Of a stretch of 55,920 bases of DNA, positions 3,448-54,502 are shown one piece after another. Under the pieces are notes generated by a model, which did no database searches, had not been told where the DNA came from, and saw only the letters and a list, made by a program, of their open reading frames with translations. The number at the start of each line of letters is the position of its first letter. The stretch's first letter is position 1. Both the position numbers and the translations under genes were made by a program. Source of the DNA: Candidatus Woesearchaeota archaeon (GTDB taxonomy: Archaea > Nanobdellota > Nanobdellia > UBA10117 > ARS21); NCBI GenBank assembly GCA_038128845.1, contig JAYPKL010000003.1, positions 1 through 55,920 on the forward strand, in the 5' to 3' direction.

Positions 3448-3490
3448 GAGCACATTTCACCTCCGAAGTGCCATACTTCATTATGTGCTC
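3448..3490 (+). promoter_or_regulatory. structured 5' leader (8-bp closing stem plus inner hairpin)
   Basis: GAGCACAT(3448-3455) pairs with ATGTGCTC(3483-3490); inner GAAGT-GCCAT-ACTTC hairpin; begins 29 nt after TTTAAAAA at 3419. Confidence 0.6.
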
Positions 3491-3499
3491 TTATTTAAG

Positions 3500-6400
3500 A
3501 TGGACTTCTTTGAAAAACATGAAGAAATTACAGAAAAAGGATTTGATCTAGATAATAAACTTAAAAATAGTACATCTTTTTCAGAATTATTTAACACAGT
3601 AGATTCTATTGAAGAATTATATAAAGAATCTGATAAATTACTACTTGAATCAGAATCTATAAATTCAAATTCTAATAAAAAATCTAAATCTTCAGTATTA
3701 TATAAAGTTGTTAAACCAGTTTTAGCAGCATCATCTATTTTAACTAGCGCAATTATGGGTTCAGGAATTGCTAAAGAATTATCAAATAATACTCTTGAAG
3801 ATATTATTTTTGAACCAATGTATTCTTCAGAAAATACAAATTCAATAAATTTAATTGATAATTTATACCAAATAAATAACGGAAGAATTAATCACGAATT
3901 TACTCCAGATAAAATATATGATCATGAAGAAAAAGTTTTGATAGAATCTAATCCGGGAGAAATTACTTTAACTTCAAAAAATATAGAATTTGATTTAAGA
4001 GATACCCAAGATAATTTAATTTATGAAACAAATAACGGTTATAATTTATTTAATTCATTAGGACGGAGTGGAGAAAGGGAAAATAAAAATATTGATAAAA
4101 TAAATATTAACAAAGAAAATTGTTTGGATGAATATAATTTATCTTTAAATGAAAAAATCTTCCTTAAACCAGGTATTGTACTTAATTACGGAGAAGAACC
4201 GTGGAAAAAATTTGTTACAGATAATAATCAAATAATACATACTACTAATGTGGATACCTCTAATGAATCTTCTAGAATTTTTAATGTCGGAGATACATTA
4301 GATTTTATAGACAATTATACTAAATTTTCAGGAATTGATTCTGATGGCGATTTTATTGTTGATAGAAATATAAATAAAAATTTTTTAAGTGAAAAGCTAT
4401 GGATTGGATCAAATAACTATATTAATTCAGACGTTAGAACAGATATATCAATTAATAGTTTAAATAGAATTAGTTTACCAGAAAATTACGAATCATCTCA
4501 ATCAGACTATTTTGCCTCCTTTGAAACAATATTTATACGTGAGGATGTAGTAAAACAAAATATCGATCTACCATTAAATCAACAAAAGAAGATAAATATT
4601 TCTGATGGATTAGAGATTAAAAGATTACAAAATTCAAATACAGATTATACGGATCTTATTGAAATAACATACAATGATTCAATGGGCGATAATCAATTTG
4701 AAAGAATTTTATTTAATAAATCATATAATCGTCAATCTAATATAGATAATCCTAATTCAGATATATGGATTGAATATAATTCTGAAAATAATTTATATAG
4801 TGTAAGAAAATCTAACGATATAGAAATTCCAATAAATATTTGTAATCAAAATAGTAATTCTATATTATTTAGTAATATAAACAGAGACTTAATTAAAGGT
4901 AATGAGTTTGTAAACGGAGAAAATACAATCATGCCTTCTAAGTTAGACAAAATAAATTTTTCAAAAAATGATAACTCAAATAATAATTTTACAATAACTG
5001 CAAATTTTTCAAAAATCGATTTAGTTTCTCCGTATATAGGCGATTTTAATTCTTTTGAATTTAATTCAAATTTAGATTTTGGTATCCGGGAAGAAAATCT
5101 AAAAAACGTTAATGTCAAGTTAAATGGATTAAATCAAAATTATAATATTAAAGATACTAACAAAGCAGATAGAAAAATTTTACAAATAGAAAATATCAGT
5201 AATTTAAATAAAGGATCCAATAATTTAGAAATAATATTAGAAGACTTATCAAATAATAAAAGAAACTATAATTTAGAAATATATAAATATATACCAAAAA
5301 ATATGGATTCAAATTTAATTGATACTTCTATAGATCATAAAGATAATAATGTAAATTATTTCATTGCTTTCGATAATAAACATGATAAAAATATTACATT
5401 AAATATTTTAGATAAAGATAAAAATAAATTGATATCAAAAAATTTAGATTTTCTTCTTAATAATACCGAAACAAATTATGATAGAGGTTTTATAAATTTA
5501 AATATAGATTGTGAAGACACAAATGAATTAAATTATGAAATAATTGAAAATATTGATAACTATAATATAATAAGAGTATCTGAAGACGGAGATCATAGTG
5601 CTTATGATTATTGGGGTTATTTTAAGGAAAATGGATCAAAAGTAAAAATTGACAATTTAGAAGTATTAGAAGATAATAAATCATACAGATTAAATTTTAC
5701 AATAGATAATAAAAATCATAGCATAGTTAATACAAAAGAAGGAGATGAATTATATGAAAAACTAAATTCATTAAATATTGAAAATATTGATAATCGATTG
5801 TTTGTTCCAGAATTAGATAAATATTTTGTTTTAACGGCAGAAGGCAATAATCAATCAGGTTTTTATTACCATTTACACTCATTCAATAAAGAATTAATTC
5901 AAAATATAAATTATAAAAATAACTTAATTAGAGAAAATATTAATCAAGATTCATTTGAAGATTCAGTGTTTATAGATGAAAATTTGATAAGAGATTATCC
6001 CGAATTTTCAGATTACTTAAATCAAACATTAAATTTATCTATTTCAGAAAAAGAAAATAATAAAATAAATCTACTTGATGTTACCAATAAGGATAAATTA
6101 ATTATATCCGAAGAAGAATCTTATCATTTAAACATTAAAGATTCAGATAATAATAATATTATGAATCGTACTGAATATTTCTCTAATAATAAATTTGCTC
6201 CAACTTCAGATAGAAATGAAGTGTTTAGATTATCAAATAAAAATAATTTAGAAGAAAAATTAGCTGAAGGTAAGATAAATTTGGATTGCGATATTAAAGT
6301 ACCAGAAAATCCTATATATAATCAAACAAATGAAACAGAAAATCCAATATATAATCAAACAAATGAAACAGAAAATCCAATATATAATCAAACAAATGAA

Positions 6401-6733
6401 ACAGAATTACCAAAAAACCCAGTATATAATCAAACTGAAGTAAAAAATGAAACAGAAGTTACAAATGAATCTGAGTTAGAATCCGTAATTGAAGATTTTA
6501 TTGGACCCAAAGAAACTAATGAAACTATAATTTACCGAGAAAATGAAAACTCTTATTCAGGTAAAGATTTAGCAATTGTTGGCGGATTGGCCTCAGGAAT
6601 TACAGGATTAGTTGGTGCTATATATAGTAAACTTTCTAGAAAAAATAAAGATAAGAAAGAAAAGGAATTAGCTAATATTTACGACGCAACACAAGAGATA
6701 GAAGATAATTTATTTGATAATCAGTACGATTAA
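3500..6733 (+). CDS. large membrane-anchored surface glycoprotein-like protein
   Basis: About 1077 aa, Asn-rich; hydrophobic segments near both termini; many NxS/T sequons in a stalk-like repeat region; ATG 3500 preferred over GTG 3485, which lies inside the leader stem. Confidence 0.65.
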   Translation: MDFFEKHEEITEKGFDLDNKLKNSTSFSELFNTVDSIEELYKESDKLLLESESINSNSNKKSKSSVLYKVVKPVLAASSILTSAIMGSGIAKELSNNTLEDIIFEPMYSSENTNSINLIDNLYQINNGRINHEFTPDKIYDHEEKVLIESNPGEITLTSKNIEFDLRDTQDNLIYETNNGYNLFNSLGRSGERENKNIDKININKENCLDEYNLSLNEKIFLKPGIVLNYGEEPWKKFVTDNNQIIHTTNVDTSNESSRIFNVGDTLDFIDNYTKFSGIDSDGDFIVDRNINKNFLSEKLWIGSNNYINSDVRTDISINSLNRISLPENYESSQSDYFASFETIFIREDVVKQNIDLPLNQQKKINISDGLEIKRLQNSNTDYTDLIEITYNDSMGDNQFERILFNKSYNRQSNIDNPNSDIWIEYNSENNLYSVRKSNDIEIPINICNQNSNSILFSNINRDLIKGNEFVNGENTIMPSKLDKINFSKNDNSNNNFTITANFSKIDLVSPYIGDFNSFEFNSNLDFGIREENLKNVNVKLNGLNQNYNIKDTNKADRKILQIENISNLNKGSNNLEIILEDLSNNKRNYNLEIYKYIPKNMDSNLIDTSIDHKDNNVNYFIAFDNKHDKNITLNILDKDKNKLISKNLDFLLNNTETNYDRGFINLNIDCEDTNELNYEIIENIDNYNIIRVSEDGDHSAYDYWGYFKENGSKVKIDNLEVLEDNKSYRLNFTIDNKNHSIVNTKEGDELYEKLNSLNIENIDNRLFVPELDKYFVLTAEGNNQSGFYYHLHSFNKELIQNINYKNNLIRENINQDSFEDSVFIDENLIRDYPEFSDYLNQTLNLSISEKENNKINLLDVTNKDKLIISEEESYHLNIKDSDNNNIMNRTEYFSNNKFAPTSDRNEVFRLSNKNNLEEKLAEGKINLDCDIKVPENPIYNQTNETENPIYNQTNETENPIYNQTNETELPKNPVYNQTEVKNETEVTNESELESVIEDFIGPKETNETIIYRENENSYSGKDLAIVGGLASGITGLVGAIYSKLSRKNKDKKEKELANIYDATQEIEDNLFDNQYD
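6305..6403 (+). repeat. 3 x 33-bp in-frame tandem repeat (ENPIYNQTNET)
   Basis: gaaaatccWatatataatcaaacaaatgaaaca at 6305, 6338 and 6371, plus a degenerate fourth copy. Confidence 0.95.
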
Positions 6734-26981: not shown

Positions 26982-27401
26982 ATGAAAAATAAAATAGTAC
27001 TTATTTTACACATATTATCTTTACTTGGAATTTTATTTTCCGGAATAACTATTTATGATCATTATAATACCGAACCTTCAAGTGTTTGTTTAACTGGAGG
27101 AGGATGCGATACTGCAAATAATAGTGTTTATTCTGAATTTATGGGTATTCCTGTTGGTTTCTTCGGTATACTTTGGTTTATTTTATTTTCACTTTCAATT
27201 AGCTTTAATGAACCTGAAATAACAACTCTTTTGATTTTAGGCGGAGTAACTGTTGTAGCTTATTTTATTTTTGTAGAATTATATATTCTTAGAGTTATTT
27301 GTTCAACCTGTACTTTTATACATGCAATTGTTTATTTACAATCTTTAATCGTGCTTGCTCCCTTTATGTCCAGAACCTTTAAGAGAAATAATCGGAAGTA
27401 A
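26982..27401 (+). CDS. vitamin K epoxide reductase (VKOR) family protein
   Basis: C..GGGCD...S.YS..MGIPV motif and CSTC redox pair; start moved to ATG 26982, outside tRNA-Arg. Confidence 0.9.
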   Translation: MKNKIVLILHILSLLGILFSGITIYDHYNTEPSSVCLTGGGCDTANNSVYSEFMGIPVGFFGILWFILFSLSISFNEPEITTLLILGGVTVVAYFIFVELYILRVICSTCTFIHAIVYLQSLIVLAPFMSRTFKRNNRK

Positions 27402-28508
27402 ATGTTTTACAATATCTACACTATCTTTTTGAGCATTCATAACTCTTGAAATATTTTTATAAGCGTCGGGTGCTTCGTCTAGAGTACCTTTTTCAATAGT
27501 ACCTGTAATTCCTTTCATATCTTCTTTAAATTTTTTCATAGTTATTTTTTTCTTTGCTTCAGTTCTTGATAATTTTCTTCCGGCACCATGAGACGAACTA
27601 AATAAAAATTCCGGATTACCTTTTCCAATTACTAAATAAGAACCATCTCTCATATTTGCAGGTATAACTCCTCGTTCTCCCTTTTCAGCGGGTGTTGCAC
27701 CTTTTCTATGAATATAATTTTTACCATGAGGAACTGCATGATTATGGTTTTTATTTGTCCAGATCTCATATGATAATTTTTGATTCAATATTTGTTCGAT
27801 AGAATAAATTGTTTTGTAAATAATTTCTTTTCTATTTAATAATGCAAATTCTAAACCAAATTCTAAAACATTTAGATATTCTTTTCCAACAACTGAATTT
27901 ATTTTAATTGGATGTGTTGCTTCAAATTCTTTATCAGAACCTGAACTTTTTTTCATATATTTTTCTGCAACTTTATATCCTATACCTCTTGAACCAGAGT
28001 GTACTATAATCCAAAATTCATTATTTGAATAACATAGTTCTAAAAAATGATTTCCGCTTCCCAGAGTTCCAAGATGAGAAAGAGATTTATTTTTTATAAA
28101 TTTGTAAATATCTTTATCATGAGCTCCTTTTTCAAATTTTTCTAAAAGATTATTTAATTCTTTTTTTGTTTTATCAGAAATATTTTTTGGATGATTTAAC
28201 ATACCCGTTCCCATAGGAACATTTTTCATAATTTCATCATAAATTTTTTTTGTGTTATTTTTAATTTTAGAAAGTACTTCTTCATTAATTTTTACAGCAG
28301 TCATTCCACATCCAATATCATATCCTACCCACGACGGTACAATGTAATTTTTAGTTTCTAAAACAGATCCAATAGGTGCAACATAACCAGAATGTGCATC
28401 AGGCATAAGTGCAGCATTTACAACAAAATCTTGATTAACACAATGTTCAAATTGTTCTTCAGTTGCTTTATCTATGTCAATTGCATAATTGTAAATTTTC
28501 TTTTTCAT
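27345..28508 (-). CDS. rtcB: RtcB RNA ligase, short form
   Basis: PDAH, DIGCG, LGTLGSGNHF, HSGSRG, HRKGAT, SHGAGR, DEAP motifs. Confidence 0.95.
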   Translation of the reverse strand: MKKKIYNYAIDIDKATEEQFEHCVNQDFVVNAALMPDAHSGYVAPIGSVLETKNYIVPSWVGYDIGCGMTAVKINEEVLSKIKNNTKKIYDEIMKNVPMGTGMLNHPKNISDKTKKELNNLLEKFEKGAHDKDIYKFIKNKSLSHLGTLGSGNHFLELCYSNNEFWIIVHSGSRGIGYKVAEKYMKKSSGSDKEFEATHPIKINSVVGKEYLNVLEFGLEFALLNRKEIIYKTIYSIEQILNQKLSYEIWTNKNHNHAVPHGKNYIHRKGATPAEKGERGVIPANMRDGSYLVIGKGNPEFLFSSSHGAGRKLSRTEAKKKITMKKFKEDMKGITGTIEKGTLDEAPDAYKNISRVMNAQKDSVDIVKHLLPIISLKGSGHKGSKHD

Positions 28509-29206
28509 TCTTCCAAAGGAACCTCTATAACTAATATTTCTGAATTTTTATCTATATTAATTTCTATATCTTCAGTTTCTGAAATTTCTATTGAATCTCT
28601 TCTATTCAAAATTTCATTATTTATTTTAACAGAGCCTTCAACTATCATTAAAAAAATTCCTTTATCTTTTTCAATTTTCAATATTTCTTTTTTATCTTCT
28701 TTAAACTTACCTAAATATATTTTTGCATCCTGATGAATGTAAAGATTATCATCATTGTTATTTCCCGAAACTATTTTGTTTAACTTATTATCCGCAAGAT
28801 TTAGTTTTTTTGTTTCGTGTCTTGGTACTGCATTAAATTTTCTTGTTTTTATCCATATTTGAAATAATTTTACTATATTATTTGTCCGATTATATTCCGA
28901 ATGAACAATTCCAGATCCCGCAGACATTACTTGAATTTCTCCGGATTTAATATCTCCTTCAGATCCAGTACTATCTTTATGAGATAATATTCCTTCAGTA
29001 GGTATTGTAATTATTTCCATATTATCGTGTTGATGTGCCCCAAAACCACTATTTGCAGCAATTTCATCATCGTTTAATACAATTAATTTTCCAAAACCCA
29101 TTCTTTTCGGATTATAGTAATTTGCAAAGCTAAAACTAAATCTAGAGTTTAACCACGAATGATTCGCAATTCCTCTTTCATCAGATCTATGTATTAATTT
29201 ATTCAT
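28505..29206 (-). CDS. pirin family protein
   Basis: RFSFSFA.YY, H.H.NMEI, MSAGSGIVHSE, FQIW motifs. Confidence 0.93.
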   Translation of the reverse strand: MNKLIHRSDERGIANHSWLNSRFSFSFANYYNPKRMGFGKLIVLNDDEIAANSGFGAHQHDNMEIITIPTEGILSHKDSTGSEGDIKSGEIQVMSAGSGIVHSEYNRTNNIVKLFQIWIKTRKFNAVPRHETKKLNLADNKLNKIVSGNNNDDNLYIHQDAKIYLGKFKEDKKEILKIEKDKGIFLMIVEGSVKINNEILNRRDSIEISETEDIEINIDKNSEILVIEVPLEE

Positions 29207-29273
29207 ATTGAAATGTATAATTTTAGTTTATAAGAGTTAAGTTTTTAAATAAAAAATAAAGTCTCACTTTATT

Positions 29274-29348
29274 GCCCCTTTAGTGTAGTCCGGTCAATCA
29301 TCCATGGTTCTCAGCCGTGTGACGCGGGTTCAAATCCCGCAAGGGGCG
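29274..29348 (+). tRNA. tRNA-Glu(CTC)
   Basis: GCCCCTT/AAGGGGC acceptor; CATGG-TT CTC AG-CCGTG; T-arm GCGGG-TTCAAAT-CCCGC. Confidence 0.95.
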
Positions 29349-29441
29349 TACTATTATTAGTGACATTTAGTGTAGTATATTTAGAATTTTTAAAAAAAGT
29401 CTAATAAATAAATTTATAAACCAATTATTGAAGGCTAAATA

Positions 29442-30251
29442 ATGGCATTATATCATCCACACGAGAAAGAACAGGTTAGAGCTATAAGATATACATTAGA
29501 AACAGCTCCGCAAATTCAAAAACAGCTTAAAGAAAAATTTGGATACGGAGAAAATATGTTCTTTGATTTAGATTTAATAGAATATAGAATTCATAATTCT
29601 CGTAAAAAAATTGCCGAAGAGTTAGATGTTAAGTCTCTTTATGGTTTAAATGAGAATATTGCTGAAGGCGCAGTAAGTTATGCTTTTAGAGGTTACGATA
29701 GTGAAGAGTTTTTACCCGAATATAAGTTCGAAGGATTGTTTGGAGAACAATTGAATGATCTAATTGAAAAGAATAGAGGTAGTATAACTTGTCGGATTTA
29801 TGGTCGGATTATGCGTCGGAAAAGTGCTGAAGCACAAGGTAAACATATTTGGAGTCTAGATGAATTAATAAGTTTACATGAAATTCGTGAAGAATCAATT
29901 GGTAAAGGTCGTTATAAGACAACACCATGTATGACTTATGTTGCTGAAAAATTTAATGAAAGACACGGAACAGAACTAACTGAAAAAGCATTAATTATGG
30001 CATATTCACAAAACAAACATCGTCTTTCTGAAGCCGGTGTTGAAATAGCTGAACCTTTTTGGAGTCTAGATAAGTTAGTAAGTTTACATGAAATTCGTGA
30101 AGAATCAATTGGTAAGGGTATTAAAAAAACTCAACCATGTATGACTTATGTTACTGAAAAATTTAATGAACGACACGGAACAGACTTTACTAAAAAAGAC
30201 TTAACAGGGATGTATTCACTCAACAAACATCGTCTTTCTGAAGAAGAATAA
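29442..30251 (+). CDS. modular repeat protein: N-terminal HTH-like domain plus 2 x 70-aa HTH/Myb-like modules
   Basis: 210-bp units start at 29850 and 30060 (WSLD..SLHEIREES.GKG..PC..YV.EKFNE.HGT..AYS.NK); paralog at 44627. Confidence 0.8.
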   Translation: MALYHPHEKEQVRAIRYTLETAPQIQKQLKEKFGYGENMFFDLDLIEYRIHNSRKKIAEELDVKSLYGLNENIAEGAVSYAFRGYDSEEFLPEYKFEGLFGEQLNDLIEKNRGSITCRIYGRIMRRKSAEAQGKHIWSLDELISLHEIREESIGKGRYKTTPCMTYVAEKFNERHGTELTEKALIMAYSQNKHRLSEAGVEIAEPFWSLDKLVSLHEIREESIGKGIKKTQPCMTYVTEKFNERHGTDFTKKDLTGMYSLNKHRLSEEE

Positions 30252-30330
30252 ATTTATTTAAACTATTACTAGTTTATTAAATCAACAGGTAAAATACTAA
30301 ATATATTTACCAATTGTCACTAACAATTCT

Positions 30331-30348
30331 AATCACGCAAGGGGCGTA
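30331..30348 (+). repeat. second copy of tRNA-Glu 3' end (att-like)
   Basis: 17/18 identity to 29333-29350. Confidence 0.85.
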
Positions 30349-30388
30349 TAATAACAATTATTATAAAGTTTGCAAACTAAATAAATTT

Positions 30389-30553
30389 ATGAAAGAAAAA
30401 TATAATACACTTGAAGAATTAATGGGAAATTTTTCATTTGATAAAAGTATTATGGAAAAACAGTTAGAGAATACTCATATGAATATCTTTGAAGTTTATA
30501 CGGGCGGCAATAGTCATATGAATATCTTTGAAGTTTATACGGGCGGTAACTGA
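30389..30553 (+). CDS. 54-aa microprotein ending in a 13-aa tandem duplication
   Basis: ATG 30389 about 29 nt after ATTATAAA; 39-bp units at 30470 and 30509 (NxHMNIFEVYTGG). Confidence 0.5.
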   Translation: MKEKYNTLEELMGNFSFDKSIMEKQLENTHMNIFEVYTGGNSHMNIFEVYTGGN

Positions 30554-30588
30554 ATCCTACTTTAAATATTAGTTTTTAATAATAAATT

Positions 30589-30616
30589 TAATTTTAGTTG
30601 AACATATTTGGATCTA
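30589..30616. repeat. 28-bp dispersed direct repeat, copy 1
   Basis: taattttagttgaacatatttRgatcta, 27/28 identical to 32312-32339. Confidence 0.85.
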
Positions 30617-30762
30617 GAAATGATACCCGTGCAGCTTGCTGCAATACAGCCCGAGATTTTCCTTTCCCATCTTAATATGTATATATAACGTAGAATCATA
30701 ACACATCTAAACAGTGTTCGTTCTTTCCCAAAATGAGATACGAAAGGGCAATTGTCACCTAG

Positions 30763-30779
30763 AATCTCGCAAGGGGCGT
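30763..30779 (+). repeat. third copy of tRNA-Glu 3' end (att-like)
   Basis: AATCTCGCAAGGGGCGT, 16/17 identity; preceded by CAATTGTCAC like the second copy. Confidence 0.85.
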
Positions 30780-30792
30780 GCAATGAGATATC

Positions 30793-31359
30793 CTATCTTT
30801 TTTTACTCAAAATATTTCCTTCTAATGGATTTTTATATGAACTTTTTGGTTTTCGGCTTTCGATTAATTTTCTCATATACTTAATTAATTTAGTGTCTAA
30901 AATCGCTCCATCAAAATTCGCATTCACTACTTCATCAAGAATCGCCCACCTAAGATCTACTTTTTTAAGATTTACTCCATCAAGATTCGCTCTTCTAAGA
31001 TTTGCCTTTCTAAGGATCGCACCTTCAAGATGAACTCCTCTAAGATCCACTTCCTTAAGATTTGTATACCGCATATTTGATGCTCCAAGATCTGCTCCCC
31101 GAATATTCACCCCTCGAAGATCAGCTCCCTGAAGATTCGCTCCCCAAAGATTTGCCTTTCTAAGATCCGCTCCTTCAAGATTCGCACCCCGAAGATCCGC
31201 TAACCCAAGATCCGATCCCCGAAGATCCGCTCCTTCAAGATTCGCTCCCCGAAGATTCGCTCCCCAAAGATACGCACCCCGAAGATACGCACCCCGAAGA
31301 TACGCTCCTTTTAGTGTTTTTAAAGAATATTCTTTTAATATATCTGCTATTGTTTTCAT
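30793..31359 (-). CDS. pentapeptide repeat protein
   Basis: About 25 consecutive A(D/N/Y)LxG-type pentapeptides, 15-bp DNA periodicity. Confidence 0.95.
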   Translation of the reverse strand: MKTIADILKEYSLKTLKGAYLRGAYLRGAYLWGANLRGANLEGADLRGSDLGLADLRGANLEGADLRKANLWGANLQGADLRGVNIRGADLGASNMRYTNLKEVDLRGVHLEGAILRKANLRRANLDGVNLKKVDLRWAILDEVVNANFDGAILDTKLIKYMRKLIESRKPKSSYKNPLEGNILSKKR

Positions 31360-31461
31360 TTTTTATATTTATTAATAATTTTATATAAAATTTTGTTTGA
31401 TGCTTAATTTTTATATTATTAAATAAATTATTTTTTATATTATAAATAATTAATATTTATT

Positions 31462-31503
31462 ATGTGCGGAACTTGTGGTTGTGACGATAAAGACGGAAAA
31501 TAA
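31462..31503 (+). CDS. 13-aa CxxCGC peptide MCGTCGCDDKDGK (not in ORF track)
   Basis: GC-rich ORF in extremely AT-rich DNA; TTTATATT 28 nt upstream; followed by a trailer shared with the repeat-protein gene. Confidence 0.45.
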   Translation: MCGTCGCDDKDGK

Positions 31504-31642
31504 GTTTATTTAAACTATTACTATTTTAGTTAACTATCAATGGTTAAGAAGAAAGATAATTATACCATAGTCAGCGAATTAATTATTAAAAATAAAATTC
31601 AAATAATATCTTATTACTAACCTAACTATGACTAGGAGAATT

Positions 31643-32308
31643 ATGAGAGGGAAACTATATCTTTCAGGCGGCGGAGATGAAAATCAAACTTATAATGCAG
31701 ATAAACAAATATTTGCCGATGTTAAAAAAATTCTTTATATACCTCTTGCATGGGAAGGAGACAAATCATACGCGTTATGCAAAAAATGGTTTGAAAATAT
31801 GATTTCAAAACATAAGCCGATTTCATATGATATGATTATTACAGGTACTACTGACAGAAATTTGAATAATTATGATTTAATATATATCGGAGGCGGCAAC
31901 ACATTTAAGCTACTTAAAGAATTAAGAGCTTCCGACTTGAGTAAAAAAATAATTGATTTCCTAAATAATGGAGGTAGCGTGTACGGAGGAAGTGCTGGTG
32001 CAATTATATGGGGAAAGCATATTGATCAAAAATACAGAAAAAAAATTATATCTAGCAGTACAGATGCAGATAAAAACAAAGTAAAACAAAGTAACACTTC
32101 TGGTTTCAACTTAGTTAAAGGATATGATATACAATGCCATTTTATAGATGACGAATTGAATGAATATATTGAATATTCAAAAAATAAGTCTGTCAAAATA
32201 CTTGCAATACCTGAAGAGAGCGTCCTAGAATTTGACGGTAAAAATTTTAGAGTTTTTGGCACTAAAAAAGTAACAATCATAGATAAAAAAAATATTTCAA
32301 AAATATAA
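31643..32308 (+). CDS. peptidase E (S51)-like class I glutamine-amidotransferase-fold protein
   Basis: LSGGG, IYIGGGNTF, GGSAGA nucleophile elbow; AGGAG SD before ATG 31643. Confidence 0.88.
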   Translation: MRGKLYLSGGGDENQTYNADKQIFADVKKILYIPLAWEGDKSYALCKKWFENMISKHKPISYDMIITGTTDRNLNNYDLIYIGGGNTFKLLKELRASDLSKKIIDFLNNGGSVYGGSAGAIIWGKHIDQKYRKKIISSSTDADKNKVKQSNTSGFNLVKGYDIQCHFIDDELNEYIEYSKNKSVKILAIPEESVLEFDGKNFRVFGTKKVTIIDKKNISKI

Positions 32309-32559: not shown

Positions 32560-33159
32560 ATGAATTTAGAACAAATTATTGATATTCCAAATTGGAAATT
32601 ATCTGTTGCAAAAACACAATTTGAAGCTGCAAATATTAACAATGTTTCAAAAATAAACTTTGAATTAAAAAATTTAGATGATTTTCTAAAAGAAACAACC
32701 ACATTAAGAGACGAACAAGGAAAACTATATCACAGAAGAGGTCGCCAAGGTTCTAGAAAAAGATTAAAGAATTTAGAAAGAGATTTTTTTTACGTAAATA
32801 ATAAAATATTCATACCAACTATACTTGAACCATTTACAGAAAATTTGATAAAATATTCAAAAGTCCCCGAATATATTTTAGAATTAGACTTAATGGACGA
32901 TAGAAATATAGTAAATATTTCAAAAATGTTAGATACAAAAAACCCAGAATTTAATGAAGTTTATGCAAAAATAAAAAAGCCAGGATTAGTTACATCGGAA
33001 GTAAGATTATTAGATACAACAAATAAACATTGGAATATGCCTAATAACAAATATGATTGGTTTAATATAATGTATCTATATAATTTTGATGATCAGTTAA
33101 AATACATGCTTCAAAATAATTTTTCTAAAGATACAATAAAGCGTTCTAAAAGTATATAA
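32560..33159 (+). CDS. hypothetical protein
   Basis: 199-aa ORF, no recognised motif. Confidence 0.6.
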   Translation: MNLEQIIDIPNWKLSVAKTQFEAANINNVSKINFELKNLDDFLKETTTLRDEQGKLYHRRGRQGSRKRLKNLERDFFYVNNKIFIPTILEPFTENLIKYSKVPEYILELDLMDDRNIVNISKMLDTKNPEFNEVYAKIKKPGLVTSEVRLLDTTNKHWNMPNNKYDWFNIMYLYNFDDQLKYMLQNNFSKDTIKRSKSI

Positions 33160-33180
33160 AGAATTAATTAAATTATAAAT

Positions 33181-33966
33181 ATGGTATATGAAAACTTGTT
33201 TCAATATACGCCAATTCAGCATGATTTAATTGCTCAAACACTTACACTTACATATACAATTATGATTGCAGCTCTTCTTTATTTTGCATTTAGTCTAAAA
33301 ACAAATGCTCCAAAATATCGTACATCTGGAATTCTTTCGATAGTTGTTATGACTTCCGCATTTATTATTTTATTTTACCAATCACAAAGCTGGCAAAATG
33401 CTTTTACCTTTAATGCAGAAATAGGAAAATATGTTTTAGATTCCGGAGCAGATTTATTCTCAAATGGATATAGATATCTTAATTGGTTGATTGATGTACC
33501 TATGTTATTATTTCAAATATTATTCATTGTAAATTTATCACAAAAAGAATTTATCACAAAAAGAAATTGGTTTTTCATTTCAGGTGCAGCAATGATATTA
33601 CTAGGTTATGTTGGTCAATTTTATGAAACAACTAATGTCAACATGTTTATTACACTTGGATTAATTTCAACTGTATTTTTCATTCATATTTTATATTTAA
33701 TTTATGGAATAATTAAAGGAGCAATTAAAGATTTATCAAAGCCGGCTGGAAAAATTATGGCAGGAATTTGGATATTATTTTTATTCTCTTGGACACTCTA
33801 TCCAATCGCATATGCAATGCCAGTATTAGGTTATGGAGAATGGGGAGTTGTTGCAAGACAAATGATTTTTTCAGTAGCAGATGTATTGTCTAAAGTAATT
33901 TATGGAATTTTACTTATGAGAGTTGGGCAATTAAGAAGTAAAGAAGACGGATATAAATATAATTAA
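33181..33966 (+). CDS. type-1 microbial rhodopsin, NDQ motif (KR2-like light-driven Na+ pump)
   Basis: 7 TM; helix C NGYRYLNWLIDVPMLLFQILF (R98, N101, D105, Q112); helix G ARQ..ADVLSKVIYG (D234, retinal K238). Confidence 0.93.
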   Translation: MVYENLFQYTPIQHDLIAQTLTLTYTIMIAALLYFAFSLKTNAPKYRTSGILSIVVMTSAFIILFYQSQSWQNAFTFNAEIGKYVLDSGADLFSNGYRYLNWLIDVPMLLFQILFIVNLSQKEFITKRNWFFISGAAMILLGYVGQFYETTNVNMFITLGLISTVFFIHILYLIYGIIKGAIKDLSKPAGKIMAGIWILFLFSWTLYPIAYAMPVLGYGEWGVVARQMIFSVADVLSKVIYGILLMRVGQLRSKEDGYKYN

Positions 33967-34079
33967 TTACAAGTTTCTCCTCTACAGCATTCATCGATAT
34001 TATAACCGCATTTTTTACATTGCCCGTGACCATGTACCCAAATTAAATCCGATTCATTGCCACAAAAACCACATCTCAT
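33963..34079 (-). CDS. 38-aa Cys/His-rich microprotein (not in ORF track)
   Basis: MRCGFCGNESDLIWVHGHGQCKKCGYNIDECCRGETCN; TTTATAAA 27 nt upstream; stop overlaps the rhodopsin stop. Confidence 0.7.
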   Translation of the reverse strand: MRCGFCGNESDLIWVHGHGQCKKCGYNIDECCRGETCN

Positions 34080-44626: not shown

Positions 44627-45898
44627 ATGACATTATCTCATCCACACGAGCAAGAGCAGGTTAGTGCTATAAAATATACATTAGAAACAGCTCCAAAAGT
44701 TCAAAAACAACTTAAAGAAAAATTTGGATATGGAGAAAATATGTTTTTTGATTTGGACTTAATAGAATATAGAACTAAAAATTATGCTAAAGATATTGCT
44801 GAAGATTTAGATGTTAAATCTCTTTATGGTGTATCTGAAGGAGTTGCTGAACACGCAGTATGTAGCGCTTTTAGAGGTTACGATAGTGAAGAGTTTTTAC
44901 CCGAATTTCAGTTTGAAGGATTGTTTGGAAAACAACTGAATGATATAATTGAATATAATAAATATAAGATTAATGGTCAGAAAAATTACGCCAATGGTTT
45001 GGGTAAACTAACAGCTGAAGAAAGGTCCAAACTTAATCTGAAAGCTGTTGAAGCACGAGGAGACCATATTTGGAGTCTAGATGAATTAGTAAGTTTACAT
45101 AAAATTCGTAAAGAGTCAGTTGGCAAAGGTCATGATAAAACTAGACCATGTTGGAATTATGTTACTGAAAAATTTAATGAACAACACGGAACAGACCTTG
45201 GTAAAACAGCCGTATCAGTAGCATATTCAAAAAACAAACATATTCTTTCTGAAGCCGGTTTTGAAATAGCTGAACCGTTTTGGAGTTTAGATAAAATATT
45301 AAGTTTACATGAAATTCGTGAAGAGTCAGTCGGTAAAGGTCATTTTAAGAAAAAACCATGTAGGACTTATACTACTGAAAAATTTAATGAACGACATGGA
45401 ACAGACTTTACTAAAATAGAATTAAAAACGGCATATTCACGAAACAAACATCGTCTTTCTGAAGCCGGTGTTGAAATAGCTGAACCTTTTATTTGGAATC
45501 TTGACAAAATATTAAGTTTACATGAAATTCGTGAAGAGTCATTTGGCAAAGGTAATAAAAAAACAAGTCCATTTTGGACTTATGTCACTGAAGAATTTAA
45601 TGAACAACACGGAACAGACTTTACTAAACACGCATTAAGACAAGCATATAGTAAAAATAAACAACGTCTTTCTGAAGCCGGTGTTGAAATAGCTGAACCT
45701 TTTAGTTGGAATCTTGACAAAATATTAAGTTTACATAAAATTCGTAAAGAGTCATTTGGTAAAGGTCATGATAAAACTAGACCATGTTGGAATTATGTTA
45801 CTGAAAAATTTAATGAACAACACGGAACAGACCTTGGTAAAACAGCATTAAATACGGCATATTGGCGAAACAAACATATTCTTTCTGAAGAAGAATAA
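44627..45898 (+). CDS. modular repeat protein: N-terminal HTH-like domain plus 4 x 70-71-aa HTH/Myb-like modules
   Basis: Units start at 45071, 45281, 45494 and 45707 (210/213/213 bp); paralog of 29442-30251. Confidence 0.8.
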   Translation: MTLSHPHEQEQVSAIKYTLETAPKVQKQLKEKFGYGENMFFDLDLIEYRTKNYAKDIAEDLDVKSLYGVSEGVAEHAVCSAFRGYDSEEFLPEFQFEGLFGKQLNDIIEYNKYKINGQKNYANGLGKLTAEERSKLNLKAVEARGDHIWSLDELVSLHKIRKESVGKGHDKTRPCWNYVTEKFNEQHGTDLGKTAVSVAYSKNKHILSEAGFEIAEPFWSLDKILSLHEIREESVGKGHFKKKPCRTYTTEKFNERHGTDFTKIELKTAYSRNKHRLSEAGVEIAEPFIWNLDKILSLHEIREESFGKGNKKTSPFWTYVTEEFNEQHGTDFTKHALRQAYSKNKQRLSEAGVEIAEPFSWNLDKILSLHKIRKESFGKGHDKTRPCWNYVTEKFNEQHGTDLGKTALNTAYWRNKHILSEEE

Positions 45899-46903: not shown

Positions 46904-47869
46904 ATGATTGAAATATATTTGCTAATCTCATTATTGGCAGTATGGTACGGTGCACATATAGTAGTAGATCATGCTCTAATTGTTGCTAAAGAGCTTAAAG
47001 TTTCAAAATTGTTTATGGGATTAACAATTTTATCTTTAGGTACAACACTTCCAGAAATATTTACTCATATTAATGCTAGTTTAGTTGAAAAGTCGGGACA
47101 ATTTGCATCCAATATAGCTTTAGGAGCAAATATTGGATCAAATATTTTTGAAACTACTATAATGATAGGTATACTGGGATTATTTACTACAATAAAATCT
47201 TCAAAAAATATTCAAAATAGAGACGGTATTGTATTATTATCTTCTGCAATCTTACTATTTTTGCTTGGAATTGATGGAGTAATAAGTAAAGTTGACGGAA
47301 TAATTCTAATATTAACTTATTTGATTTATTTATTTTATTTATACACGCGAGAAGAAAAATTAGAAGATATTATCTCACGAAAATCAAAATTGACTCATAA
47401 GCAATTTAATACATTTTTACATCACGGTTTTCTAATTGCAGTAGGTTTATTCATACTACAAATTGCAGCAGAAGGTGTAATAATGAATACACTACAATTA
47501 TCCGAAATATACGGTATAGATCAATCATTCATAGGATCCATAATTATAGGTTTCAGTTCTGCATTACCAGAATTTACTGTTGCAATTATTGGTTTATTAA
47601 AAAAATCTAGAGAAATATCTTTGGGAGTAATTTTTGGATCAAATATTACAAATCCTACTATCGCAGTCGGAATAGGTGCACTTGTATTTGATAATCCAAT
47701 ATCAAGATCTTTATTATTTTTTGATATACCTTATATGTTTTTGATAGTAGTTTTATTACTAATCTTATTCAAAGAAGATCATAAATTTGGTAAAAAAGAA
47801 GGTATTATCATGATTTTATTTTACATATTTTATGTATTTTATAAATCAAAAGTATACGGAGTAATATGA
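46904..47869 (+). CDS. Na+/Ca2+ (CaCA, YrbG-like) antiporter
   Basis: alpha-repeats GTTLPE..GANIGSN and SSALPE..G.IFGSN. Confidence 0.92.
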   Translation: MIEIYLLISLLAVWYGAHIVVDHALIVAKELKVSKLFMGLTILSLGTTLPEIFTHINASLVEKSGQFASNIALGANIGSNIFETTIMIGILGLFTTIKSSKNIQNRDGIVLLSSAILLFLLGIDGVISKVDGIILILTYLIYLFYLYTREEKLEDIISRKSKLTHKQFNTFLHHGFLIAVGLFILQIAAEGVIMNTLQLSEIYGIDQSFIGSIIIGFSSALPEFTVAIIGLLKKSREISLGVIFGSNITNPTIAVGIGALVFDNPISRSLLFFDIPYMFLIVVLLLILFKEDHKFGKKEGIIMILFYIFYVFYKSKVYGVI

Positions 47870-49549: not shown

Positions 49550-49652
49550 CCCTCTGTAGCTCAATCTGGTAGAGCGCGCGACTGTAGTTGGATACTGGAA
49601 TAAAATTCCAGCAGAAATCGCGAGGTTGCTGGTTCGATTCCGGCCGGAGGGA
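49550..49652 (+). tRNA. tRNA-Tyr(GTA) with 29-nt intron at 37/38 (49588-49616)
   Basis: C1-G72 pair; BHB: CTGT/GCAG 4-bp helix, bulges AG|T and AA|A, outer TGGA/TCCA. Confidence 0.93.
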
Positions 49653-53386: not shown

Positions 53387-53738
53387 TCAAGATAAACTTA
53401 GATTAAAAAATGAAATAGCTAAATTAATTAGATTTCATAATAAATCGGGAAGTCACTGGAATTGCTATCGCTATTCTACTGCAAATACATACGAACATGA
53501 AATGCGAAAGTTCCAAGTGTTTATGGAATTAAGAAAAAGACAAATTGATGTAATGACTGAAGTTATATTTGAATCTGGCGGAAGGGCAGATTTAGTTACG
53601 TCAGAAGGAATTATTTATGAAATTTTACATTCCGAAAGTATAGAAAAATTTAATGAAAAATTAAATAAATATCCTAGACAACTAGAAATAAGAAAAATAC
53701 ATACAAAAGATTCATGGGATCCATCACTTCTTGATTAA
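53379..53738 (+). CDS. putative PD-(D/E)xK nuclease-fold protein
   Basis: TEVIF..GGRADLV...IIYEIL pattern. Confidence 0.55.
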   Translation: MNNQDKLRLKNEIAKLIRFHNKSGSHWNCYRYSTANTYEHEMRKFQVFMELRKRQIDVMTEVIFESGGRADLVTSEGIIYEILHSESIEKFNEKLNKYPRQLEIRKIHTKDSWDPSLLD

Positions 53739-54428
53739 TTTTCTATCAACACCAAATAATTTTGTAACATACATAATTAATTTATTATTTAATATAGATT
53801 TACTTTTATCAAACTTTTCCATTAATCCAAAAAATGCAATTGTTAATAAAAAATAATTCAAAGGAGTAATTAATTTAAAACCATCATAATAGCCGTAGTT
53901 ACCCGTAGATATAATTATGCTTTCAACAATGTAATCAAGTATTCCTACAAATAATGCTACAGAAAGTACGCTACTTTTATCTAAGTCTGATTTAAATGTA
54001 TTGAATCCCCATAAACCAAGAGGAACTGTAAAAATCAATAGAGATTCATCAATTCCAATTAATAAATTAGATCTTAAGTAAAGTATAAATCCCATAAGTG
54101 AAAGAATTCCAAATAAAAAATTTAATTGTAAATTATATTTTACTTTTTTGAGATTGGAGTGAATAAACTTTCCAATAACTGCTGCTGTAAAAAACATAAA
54201 TGGAAGTTCAATTGGTATTAATCCAAAAATAAAATAGTATGATTCGTTATAGTTCCAAAATTCATTGTATGTTCCAACAAATTCAACAAATATATCAAGA
54301 ACTGCTGCTAAAAGACCAAATAATAAATAATCTGTTAAAATAGAATAATTTTTTTTATAAATTGCATCGCCAAATAAAATAATATTAATTATTAATCCAA
54401 TAATAAATAAATAAAATAATTCGTTCAT
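53724..54428 (-). CDS. polytopic membrane protein with internal duplication
   Basis: About 7 TM; repeated (L/I)LD..VE....G.(W/Y).Y; start MNELFY at 54428. Confidence 0.6.
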   Translation of the reverse strand: MNELFYLFIIGLIINIILFGDAIYKKNYSILTDYLLFGLLAAVLDIFVEFVGTYNEFWNYNESYYFIFGLIPIELPFMFFTAAVIGKFIHSNLKKVKYNLQLNFLFGILSLMGFILYLRSNLLIGIDESLLIFTVPLGLWGFNTFKSDLDKSSVLSVALFVGILDYIVESIIISTGNYGYYDGFKLITPLNYFLLTIAFFGLMEKFDKSKSILNNKLIMYVTKLFGVDRKLIKK

Positions 54429-54502
54429 AATAATATTATATTGACACAATTAAAAATTCTTCTAATAAAAAAATTTAAAAAGGACTTAAAAAAATAAAAT
54501 TA

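What the first reader, a model, noticed from the sequence alone, without database searches (positions are those of the whole stretch)
33181..33966. NDQ sodium-pump-type rhodopsin in an archaeal (DPANN-like) chromosome, without retinal genes
Seen: N101-D105-Q112, R98, D234, K238, plus equivalents of KR2 E11 (E4), S70 (S59), E160 (E149) and R243 (R226). Composition is host-like AT-rich, with TATATAAA 28 nt upstream. No blh/brp/crt gene lies in the window. Established: characterised NDQ pumps such as KR2 are bacterial. The KR2 comparison is from memory and I cannot confirm novelty. Inference: a laterally acquired light-driven Na+ pump giving a reduced archaeon a sodium motive force using scavenged retinal; a Na+/Ca2+ antiporter lies at 46904.
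Basis: partly seen in the sequence, partly recalled or inferred. Interest (0 to 1): 0.85.

Follow-up and report, generated by a model that had tools for sequence, protein, structure and literature searches.

The report
Sodium-pump rhodopsin in marine DPANN archaeon

Summary
ORF 33181-33966 (+) encodes a 261-aa type-1 rhodopsin. It carries R98, N101/D105/Q112, D234 and K238, plus E4, S59, E149 and R226. Its best solved relatives are the sodium pumps IaNaR (E 6e-82) and KR2 (1e-77), far ahead of NTQ chloride pumps (1e-47). The AlphaFold model (pLDDT 91.5) matches KR2 at TM 0.91-0.92.

The host is archaeal and DPANN: the window holds aCPSF1, a proteasome subunit, eS1/uS15, Rad50/Mre11, RtcB and an intron-bearing tRNA. 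Database relatives are named Woesearchaeota, Nanoarchaeota or DPANN.

The join is not chimeric. The identical protein lies in the same gene order on more than 20 contigs, and a sister species carries it on ~445-kb long contigs.

The gene looks native and in use. Codon usage is host-like, a TATA box sits at -28, all 10-13 strain differences are synonymous, and dN/dS is 0.06 between species.

No blh or crt gene was found among ORFs of 100 aa or more. Transfer from bacteria is likely, with Chloroflexota-type relatives at 60% identity or less, but rooting is unresolved.

The sequence is already in GenBank as "rhodopsin"; I found no paper describing an archaeal NDQ pump. Verdict: a new member of a known family in an unexpected host, of moderate interest. 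Na+ selectivity, retinal source and physiological role remain inferred.

The parts
33181..33966 (+). NDQ-type (NaR family, KR2-like subgroup 1) microbial rhodopsin gene, 261 aa. Key residues: R98, N101, D105, Q112, D234, K238 (Schiff-base lysine), S59, E4/E149/R226, I63, L109, P208, G142.
   Evidence: Purifying selection.
33153..33160 (+). TATATAAA, an archaeal TATA-box-like element starting 28 nt before the ATG. It overlaps the stop codon of the upstream ORF and implies an own promoter and a leaderless or near-leaderless mRNA.
   Evidence: sequence. TATA-like 8-mers upstream of the 57 window ORFs pile up at -29..-26 (4, 6, 6, 3 hits). Function as a promoter is inferred.
32560..33159 (+). Conserved upstream neighbour, a 199-aa soluble protein of unknown function, 21 nt from the rhodopsin start. 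It is always present next to the rhodopsin in the archaeal loci that reach that far upstream, and absent from bacterial NaR loci.
   Evidence: No Pfam or NCBIfam family. It evolves fast: 61% aa identity between species, dN/dS 0.25. A functional link to the pump is not shown.
46904..47869 (+). Na+/Ca2+ exchanger (YrbG/NCX type), a plausible consumer of an inward Na+ gradient.
   Evidence: PF01699 5e-48. TIGR00367 1.1e-50, 172.5 bits against a cutoff of 179.65. Coupling to the rhodopsin is inferred.
28505..32295 (.). Strain-variable island directly upstream of the rhodopsin block (Pirin, 269-aa repeat protein, pentapeptide-repeat protein, S51 peptidase). The rhodopsin itself lies in the conserved part.
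   Evidence: blastn of L001 and L003 against the window. Gene tables.
53724..54449 (-). Six-TM membrane protein of a small lineage-restricted family, remotely linked to Pfam PF04240 'Carotenoid biosynthesis protein'. It is the only candidate for any carotenoid-related gene in the window.
   Evidence: The distant family member P0277 (E 7.9e-5 to the family profile) hits PF04240 at 7.5e-9. The window ORF itself hits nothing in Pfam and only TIGR03462 (lycopene cyclase domain) at E 1.1. This is a weak, transitive link.

Best explanation
The gene encodes a functional member of the NaR (NDQ) family of light-driven outward cation pumps, in a marine, AT-rich, very small-genome DPANN archaeon (Woesearchaeota in NCBI naming, Nanoarchaeota in GTDB-style naming).

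Proposed mechanism, by homology with KR2:
- All-trans retinal is bound to K238 as a protonated Schiff base.
- Green light (about 525 nm, predicted from L109, P208 and S237) isomerises it.
- The Schiff-base proton moves to D105.
- Na+ enters from the cytoplasm past Q112, is held transiently by N101, D234 and S59, and leaves past R98 through the E4/E149/R226 cluster.

The gene is transcribed from its own archaeal TATA promoter as a leaderless mRNA. It was most probably acquired once from a bacterium with a Chloroflexota-type NaR, before the divergence of at least two or three related species, and has since been fully adapted to the host's composition.

The pump is electrogenic. It would give an organism without a respiratory chain a membrane potential and an inward Na+ gradient, usable by Na+-coupled carriers such as the NCX at 46904 and, if present, an A-type ATP synthase. 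Retinal is probably taken from a host or the environment.

Shown: family membership by sequence and fold, the archaeal context, contig integrity, selection, and host-like composition.
Inferred: the ion, the direction of transfer, promoter use, the retinal source and the physiological role.
For: Family:
- PDB phmmer gives IaNaR 5.6e-82 and KR2 1.2e-77, against ClR 1e-47 and xanthorhodopsin 3e-31.
- 27 of the 32 KR2 functional positions checked carry the KR2 residue.
- I63 at KR2 L74 places it in subgroup 1 as defined in PMC11006869.
- AF2 pLDDT is 91.5, with an N-terminal cap helix and a B-C beta-hairpin. Foldseek gives TM 0.91-0.92 to KR2 and IaNaR.

Host and integrity:
- Archaeal markers lie on the same contig.
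- The identical protein is on 23 contigs that were read, from JGI, Logan and NCBI samples, in the same synteny.
- The 92%-identical orthologue sits in the same synteny on 442-448-kb polished contigs from 4 samples.
- Orthologues at 89-99% identity have the same neighbours.
- There is no copy in IMG/VR.

Native and in use:
- GC3 and codon usage are host-like, rank 37 of 57.
- The TATA box is in the genome's preferred register.
- 10 of 10 and 13 of 13 strain differences are synonymous.
- dN/dS is 0.059 between species, similar to housekeeping neighbours.

Origin:
- All of the best 80 of 362 GTDB-representative hits are bacterial, at 60% identity or less.
- Nothing lies between 61% and 83% identity in 5.8 billion proteins or in JGI metagenomes.
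- In the unrooted NJ tree the archaeal clade falls on the Chloroflexota side in 163 of 200 bootstraps.
- It shares the short F-G loop (11 residues) and N-terminal spacing (17) with Chloroflexota-type NaRs.

Retinal:
- No blh or crt family is hit in the window.
- Published precedent for a rhodopsin without blh: PMC9296517.
- Woesearchaeota lack electron-transport chains, and only some have a V/A-ATPase: PMC8421398.
Against: - No transport assay exists for this clade.
- The two residues that form KR2's cytoplasmic uptake filter differ. G50 stands for N61 (most relatives have S). M246 stands for G263 (T, A, G or S in 118 of 118 other close relatives; never M). In KR2, bulky residues at 263 shift selectivity towards K+/Cs+, and G263L lowers activity (PDB titles). 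Selectivity could therefore differ.
- Two residues of KR2's interprotomer Na+ site and oligomer interface also differ: H14 for Y25 and Q19 for H30. KR2 Y25F abolishes Na+ binding there, and H30 mutants affect pumping and pentamerisation.
- With DTE outgroups the archaeal clade is basal in 51 of 100 bootstraps. 'Nested within bacteria' is therefore not demonstrated, and long-branch attraction is a plausible cause.
- Only 56 kb of the genome was seen. A retinal pathway and the ATP synthase could lie elsewhere or be absent.
Confidence: 0.8

Rival explanations
1. It has the same fold and family but a different physiological ion. The unusual uptake-filter pair G50/M246 makes the pump broader or shifted in selectivity (K+, or mainly H+), so that it serves K+/H+ homeostasis or simply membrane potential rather than a sodium-motive force.
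For: M246 is unique among the close relatives (0 of 118 have M) and G50 is nearly so (1 of 118 has G). Both are fixed in all archaeal orthologues. KR2 G263F/W and N61/G263 double mutants pump K+ or Cs+ (PDB 6rf3 and 6rfc titles). KR2-type pumps transport H+ when Na+ is absent (abstract of PMC5531490, listed).
Against: The core Na+ ligands and gate are intact: S59, N101, D105, Q112, D234. The habitat is seawater (Tara surface sample; salt-marsh and reef metagenomes), where Na+ is abundant. Pumping K+ outward would be counterproductive for a cell. Natural NaRs already vary at both positions (S/N/G and T/A/G/S).
Confidence: 0.12
2. It is an assembly or binning artefact: a bacterial rhodopsin gene joined to archaeal DNA, or a non-archaeal (viral or CPR) contig.
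For: The closest characterised and named relatives are bacterial. The host genome is absent from the GTDB representatives that were scanned.
Against: The gene has the same flanks in 23 contigs that were read, from different samples and assemblers, and in 442-448-kb polished contigs. GC3 and codon usage are indistinguishable from the neighbours. At about 28% GC it contrasts with the 40-66% GC measured for seven bacterial NaR loci. Archaeal ribosomal, RNA-processing and proteasome genes lie on the same contig. There is no IMG/VR match.
Confidence: 0.01
3. It is a retained but unused gene: without retinal the apoprotein is inert, or it has a light-independent or sensory role.
For: No retinal-synthesis gene lies in the window. 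The sister species may have only about 0.445 Mb of genome.
Against: dN/dS is 0.059 at dS of about 0.9, and all strain-level differences are synonymous. Every retinal-pocket and transport residue is conserved. There is no transducer or fused signalling domain. In a genome this reduced, an unused gene would be lost.
Confidence: 0.05

Closest known systems
KR2 (Krokinobacter/Dokdonia eikastus rhodopsin 2), PDB 3x3b, 4xtl, 6rex and others
   Same: About 50% identity over the whole length in the Foldseek alignment. Same 7-TM fold (TM 0.91-0.92), N-terminal cap helix and B-C hairpin. Shared residues: R109, N112, D116, Q123, D251, K255, S70, S64, Q78, N106, E160, R243, W113, W215, P219, S254, G153, D102. 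Both belong to L/I74 'subgroup 1'.
   Different: The host is an archaeon. The N-terminus is 4 residues shorter and the F-G loop 6 residues shorter. The uptake filter is G50/M246 instead of N61/G263. H14 replaces Y25, Q19 replaces H30 and Q72 replaces T83 at the oligomer and extracellular Na+ site. Function is untested.
IaNaR (Indibacter alkaliphilus sodium pump), PDB 8jh0
   Same: It is the best solved-structure match by sequence (E 5.6e-82) and has the same key residues.
   Different: It is of the Bacteroidota type with the long F-G loop, and has S/T at the filter positions.
Uncharacterised NaRs of Chloroflexota MAGs (Ardenticatenaceae, Chloroflexia, Anaerolineae), e.g. L007/P0004
   Same: They are the closest sequences outside the archaeal clade (57-61% identity). 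They share the short F-G loop and N-terminal spacing, and fall on the same side of the unrooted tree.
   Different: They are still 40% divergent. The loci measured have 51-54% GC against 28% here. No donor can be named.
Rhodopsins of other reduced episymbionts: Saccharibacteria SacRs (DTS H+ pumps, PMC9296517), NDQ rhodopsins noted in Absconditabacteria (PMC8406219), xenorhodopsins of Nanohaloarchaea (e.g. PSG98511.1 in PMC7979833)
   Same: The hosts are tiny-genome organisms lacking respiratory chains, with a single rhodopsin. For SacRs there is no blh, and retinal uptake was shown in vitro.
   Different: They are a different rhodopsin family or a different host domain. None is an archaeal NDQ pump.

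Membership tests
NaR / NDQ light-driven sodium-pump rhodopsins | Type-1 rhodopsin 7-TM fold with the Schiff-base lysine in helix G | tested here: met
   PF01036 at 1.6e-43. K238 aligns with KR2 K255. AF2 pLDDT 91.5 and Foldseek TM 0.91-0.92 to KR2.
NaR / NDQ light-driven sodium-pump rhodopsins | N-D-Q at the helix-C motif positions (KR2 N112, D116, Q123), plus R109 and D251 | tested here: met
   N101, D105, Q112, R98 and D234 are present. This is the RNDQDK six-letter motif used as the criterion in PMC11006869.
NaR / NDQ light-driven sodium-pump rhodopsins | Transient Na+ site and release-side cluster (KR2 S70, N112, D251; E11-E160-R243) | tested here: met
   S59, N101, D234, E149 and R226 are placed by pairwise alignment. 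E4 is placed by the invariant 'EN' column in 44 homologues. Geometry was not measured.
NaR / NDQ light-driven sodium-pump rhodopsins | Closer to characterised Na+ pumps than to sister families (NTQ Cl- pumps, xanthorhodopsins) | tested here: met
   278 and 264 bits to IaNaR and KR2, against 166 bits to ClR and 112 bits to xanthorhodopsin.
NaR / NDQ light-driven sodium-pump rhodopsins | Cytoplasmic uptake filter as in KR2 (N61/G263) | tested here: inconclusive
   The window protein has G50/M246. Natural NaRs mostly have S/T here, so the KR2 identities do not define the family. M is nevertheless unique among 118 relatives, and the position controls selectivity in KR2 mutants.
NaR / NDQ light-driven sodium-pump rhodopsins | Light-driven outward Na+ transport with bound all-trans retinal | not testable with these tools
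   This needs expression and pump assays.
DPANN archaea (Woesearchaeota / Nanoarchaeota-Nanobdellota) as host | Archaeal information-processing genes on the same contig | tested here: met
   aCPSF1/FttA, proteasome subunit, archaeal-type ProRS, Rad50/Mre11. eS1 (S3Ae), uS15 with the S13/S15 N-terminal domain, RIO kinase. RtcB and Lrp/AsnC. A 103-nt tRNA match implying an intron.
DPANN archaea (Woesearchaeota / Nanoarchaeota-Nanobdellota) as host | Phylogenetic affiliation with DPANN lineages | tested here: met
   Members of the 90%-identity clusters are named 'Candidatus Woesearchaeota archaeon'. Every named aCPSF1 hit in the top 120 is Nanoarchaeota, Nanoarchaeia, DPANN, Woesearchaeota or plain 'archaeon'. 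This rests on depositors' names and similarity ranking; no marker-gene tree was built.
DPANN archaea (Woesearchaeota / Nanoarchaeota-Nanobdellota) as host | Reduced genome lacking a respiratory chain and retinal/carotenoid synthesis | not tested
   Only 56 kb was seen. The sister species' contigs of 442-448 kb in 4 samples hint at a genome of about 0.445 Mb, but they could not be read in full.

The most novel reading that the evidence does not exclude
This narrow marine Woesearchaeota lineage, possibly with a genome of only about 0.445 Mb and no respiratory chain, uses a bacterial-derived Na+ pump as its main or only primary generator of membrane potential, and depends on retinal pirated from a host or from seawater. 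That would make it a light-energised, chromophore-auxotrophic DPANN symbiont. In addition, its unique G50/M246 uptake filter may represent a natural variant of NaR ion selectivity that so far has been reached only by engineering.
Probability: 0.3. Interest if true: 0.75.

Novelty: new member of a known kind. Interest (0 to 1): 0.55.

Why it matters
Sodium-pumping rhodopsins have been characterised only in bacteria. None of the six full-text searches, and none of the eleven papers checked, mentions one in an archaeon, including a 152-genome comparative study of Woesearchaeota.

If the pump works as predicted, it shows how an ultra-reduced, fermentative DPANN cell in sunlit seawater can energise its membrane and expel Na+ without a respiratory chain. 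It would add archaea to the organisms that probably live on borrowed retinal.

It also offers a natural NaR with a bulky residue at the position that engineers mutate to make K+ pumps. That is of practical interest for optogenetics.

Against this, rhodopsin transfer between domains is common, the mechanism is that of a known family, and the sequence has been public for years.

Tried and rejected
- Chimeric join or contamination: rejected.
- Viral carrier: no relative in IMG/VR.
- Retinal genes in the window: none were found among the 57 ORFs of 100 aa or more. I suspected that the 6-TM ORF 53724-54449 was a CrtYc/d-type lycopene cyclase because of a 'PxELP..FF' motif. Pfam gave nothing and TIGR03462 only E 1.1. 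A profile search of 1.84 billion representatives found a family of only 54 members, with one distant member in PF04240. That makes it a remote relative of 'carotenoid biosynthesis protein' at best, and it is not evidence for retinal synthesis.
- The 199-aa upstream ORF as a co-transferred partner: it has no homologue in any bacterial NaR locus and belongs to no family.
- Rooting the NaR tree with two DTE rhodopsins found in the fetched loci: unresolved, 51 versus 49.
- Aligning the first 9 residues to KR2 with HMMER failed.
- Literature: six searches and eleven papers gave no archaeal NDQ report. This covers only the open-access library.

Full report
**1. Observation**

The window has an ATG-initiated ORF at 33181-33966 (+) of 261 aa. 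Pfam scores it as Bac_rhodopsin at 1.6e-43.

Against all PDB sequences, the best matches are the sodium pumps IaNaR (8jh0, 5.6e-82) and KR2 (3x3b and others, about 1e-77). Next come NTQ chloride pumps (about 1e-47) and xanthorhodopsin (3e-31).

In the KR2 alignment the chain numbering equals KR2 numbering. The correspondences are:

| Window | KR2 |
|---|---|
| R98 | R109 |
| N101 | N112 |
| D105 | D116 |
| Q112 | Q123 |
| S59 | S70 |
| E149 | E160 |
| R226 | R243 |
| D234 | D251 |
| K238 | K255 |

I compared 32 KR2 functional positions with the 118 closest database relatives outside the archaeal clade. The positions match KR2 at S64, Q78, N106, W113, L120, G153, Y154, W215, Y218, P219, Y222, S254 and D102, as well as those in the table. 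I63 at KR2 L74 places the protein in the KR2-like 'subgroup 1' of Podoliak et al., PMC11006869.

E4 and N5 are invariant columns in an alignment of 44 homologues. The equation with KR2 E11 rests on that alignment and on my memory of KR2's N-terminus, because HMMER's local alignment stops at residue 10.

An AlphaFold2 model built on that alignment has mean pLDDT 91.5. It shows a short N-terminal helix, seven long helices and a B-C beta-hairpin.

**2. The host is an archaeon of the DPANN group**

The same 56-kb contig encodes:
- a proteasome subunit, aCPSF1/FttA (KH + beta-CASP), an archaeal-type ProRS and Rad50/Mre11;
- ribosomal proteins eS1 (S3Ae) and uS15 with the archaeal/eukaryotic N-domain, and a RIO-type kinase;
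- RtcB and an Lrp/AsnC regulator;
- Lhr;
- ten tRNA matches, one of them 103 nt long, which implies an intron.

Members of the 90%-identity clusters of five window proteins (rhodopsin, aCPSF1, proteasome beta, Lhr and NCX) carry NCBI names such as 'rhodopsin [Candidatus Woesearchaeota archaeon]' (MAG48470.1). Tara Oceans identifiers also appear, including a surface-water scaffold from station 137.

Every named protein in the top 120 aCPSF1 relatives is labelled Nanoarchaeota, Nanoarchaeia, DPANN group, Woesearchaeota or 'archaeon'.

**3. The join is real and the gene is native**

*Contig integrity.* The identical 261-aa protein is recorded in 25 blocks of the assembly collection. The six loci shown come from four JGI samples, one SRA run and one NCBI MAG. 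All have the order rhodopsin - small ORF - AhpC/Prx - Lhr - metallophosphoesterase - pterin dehydratase. Those that reach upstream begin with orf199.

A 92%-identical orthologue (P0122) sits in the same order on polished contigs of 442,661-447,903 bp from four samples. Further orthologues at 99%, 92% and 89% identity in JGI data have the same neighbours and 26-28% GC.

*Composition.* The gene's GC3 is 0.160, against 0.147 +/- 0.028 for the window's ORFs. Its synonymous-codon score ranks 37th of 57.

*Promoter.* TATATAAA begins 28 nt before the ATG. TATA-like octamers upstream of the window's ORFs pile up at -29 to -26. This pattern is expected for leaderless archaeal transcripts, and the rhodopsin's box lies in that peak.

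*Selection.* Among strains 97-99% identical in flanking DNA, all 10 or 13 differences in the gene are synonymous. Against the sister species dS is 0.91 and dN 0.053, so dN/dS = 0.059. That is within the range of Lhr, the phosphoesterase, AhpC and the pterin dehydratase (0.02-0.09), and much lower than orf199 (0.25).

The gene is therefore old in this lineage, adapted to the host's composition, and under purifying selection.

**4. Origin**

In one genome per GTDB species, 362 stretches encode a relative. The best 80 are all bacterial, from Chloroflexota, Bacteroidota, Balneolota, Rhodothermota and one spirochaete, at 60% identity or less.

In 5.8 billion clustered proteins the hits drop from 92% and 83% directly to 61%. 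JGI metagenomes show the same gap, from 89% to 60%. IMG/VR holds no copy.

In a neighbour-joining tree:
- The archaeal sequences are monophyletic in 200 of 200 bootstraps.
- The split 'Bacteroidota + Balneolota + Rhodothermota' versus 'Chloroflexota + others + archaeal clade' appears in 163 of 200.
- The immediate sister is unstable.

The archaeal proteins share an 11-residue F-G loop and a 17-residue N-terminal spacing with most Chloroflexota-type NaRs. Bacteroidota have 17-19 and 21 residues respectively.

I rooted the tree with two DTE rhodopsins found in the fetched loci. The long archaeal branch is then basal in 51 and nested in 49 of 100 bootstraps. Bacterium-to-archaeon transfer is thus the parsimonious reading: one narrow archaeal clade against many bacterial phyla. 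The tree does not prove it.

**5. Retinal and use of the gradient**

None of the 57 ORFs of 100 aa or more hits a Pfam family for beta-carotene cleavage or carotenoid synthesis.

The one lead is a 6-TM ORF at 53724-54449 (-). Its family has only 54 representatives among 1.84 billion. One distant member (E 7.9e-5 to the family profile) scores 7.5e-9 on PF04240 'Carotenoid biosynthesis protein'. The window ORF itself hits nothing significant.

Published context:
- Saccharibacteria rhodopsins lack blh and bind external retinal (PMC9296517).
- Woesearchaeota genomes lack electron-transport chains, and only some have a V/A-type ATPase (PMC8421398).

The window encodes an NCX-type Na+/Ca2+ exchanger, and the sister species has a second one. 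It also encodes Fe/Mn superoxide dismutase and a peroxiredoxin, which fits life in oxic, sunlit water. I could not reach the ATP synthase or the rest of the genome.

**6. What differs from known pumps**

All archaeal orthologues share:
- G50 for KR2 N61 (relatives: S 110, N 7, G 1);
- M246 for KR2 G263 (relatives: T 90, A 12, G 9, S 7; none has M);
- H14 for Y25, Q19 for H30 and Q72 for T83.

N61 and G263 form KR2's cytoplasmic uptake filter. Bulky substitutions at 263 give K+/Cs+ transport, and G263L lowers activity (PMC10608830; PDB 6rf3 and 6rfc titles). This is the basis for the main rival explanation, altered selectivity. I rate it at about 0.12, because the core Na+ ligands are intact and the habitat is seawater.

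**7. Novelty**

Six full-text searches and eleven papers gave no report of an NDQ/NaR rhodopsin in Woesearchaeota, DPANN or any archaeon. The papers included:
- a survey of 351 NDQ sequences;
- the text of a 3,022-rhodopsin screen;
- two DPANN/Woesearchaeota comparative-genomics papers.

NDQ rhodopsins have been noted in CPR Absconditabacteria (PMC8406219). The protein is already in GenBank under a generic name.

I classify it as a new member of a known kind. It is a host-range extension with a distinctive filter, not a new mechanism.

**8. Verdict**

My confidence is 0.8 that this is a working NaR-family light-driven cation pump native to a DPANN archaeon. Interest is 0.55.

Noticed in passing
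window 28505-32295 (compare L001, L003, L090-L093): A strain-variable island lies directly upstream of the rhodopsin block. It holds Pirin, a 269-aa repeat protein, a pentapeptide-repeat protein and an S51 peptidase. L003 lacks nearly all of it, keeping only a ~200-bp remnant. L001 has only a paralogue of the repeat protein there. The sister species fills the site differently.
   Followed up: partly
window 29442-30251 (+) and 44627-45898 (+): Two paralogous proteins are built from repeats of about 70 aa ('WSLD..SLHEIREES.GKG...TYVTEKFNE.HGTD'). They belong to no Pfam family (the only hits are weak ones to Hha/DUF2240). Copies lie in the variable regions.
   Followed up: no
window 49550-49652 (+): Rfam finds a tRNA match 103 nt long (54.6 bits) that ARAGORN did not report. 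It is presumably an intron-containing archaeal tRNA. RtcB, the tRNA-splicing ligase, is at 27345-28508 (-).
   Followed up: no
window about 33963-34079 (-): A 38-aa cysteine-rich ORF (CxxC...CxxC, zinc-ribbon-like) lies antisense, overlapping the last codons of the rhodopsin gene by a few bases. It is called as a gene in five of the six same-species loci.
   Followed up: no
window 53724-54449 (-): A six-TM protein with an internal duplication (D..E..G..W/Y.Y motifs). Its family has only 54 representatives in 1.84 billion proteins. It has a remote, transitive link to PF04240 'Carotenoid biosynthesis protein'.
   Followed up: partly
L087-L093 (ENA contigs hoskyn_2, erskine_4, broomfield_1, masthead_4): The sister species is represented by polished contigs of 442,661, 444,374, 446,602 and 447,903 bp in four samples. 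The near-constant length suggests a complete genome of about 0.445 Mb, which would be among the smallest archaeal genomes. It has a second Na+/Ca2+ exchanger next to the RNA polymerase operon.
   Followed up: partly
L004 (NCBI GCA_038110725.1, JAYNKA010000007.1): In this MAG the Lhr helicase and the SF1 helicase are each split into two ORFs, and two extra ORFs sit between Lhr and the phosphoesterase. The cause could be frameshifts, an insertion or assembly errors.
   Followed up: no
window 3485-6733 (+): A 1082-aa ORF has no Pfam hit at E <= 1e-4. It is the largest gene in the window and its function is unknown.
   Followed up: no
Genome-contig scan: No GTDB species-representative genome carries the archaeal-type NaR; the best hit is 60% identical. 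The NaR-bearing lineage therefore seems to be missing from that reference set.
   Followed up: no
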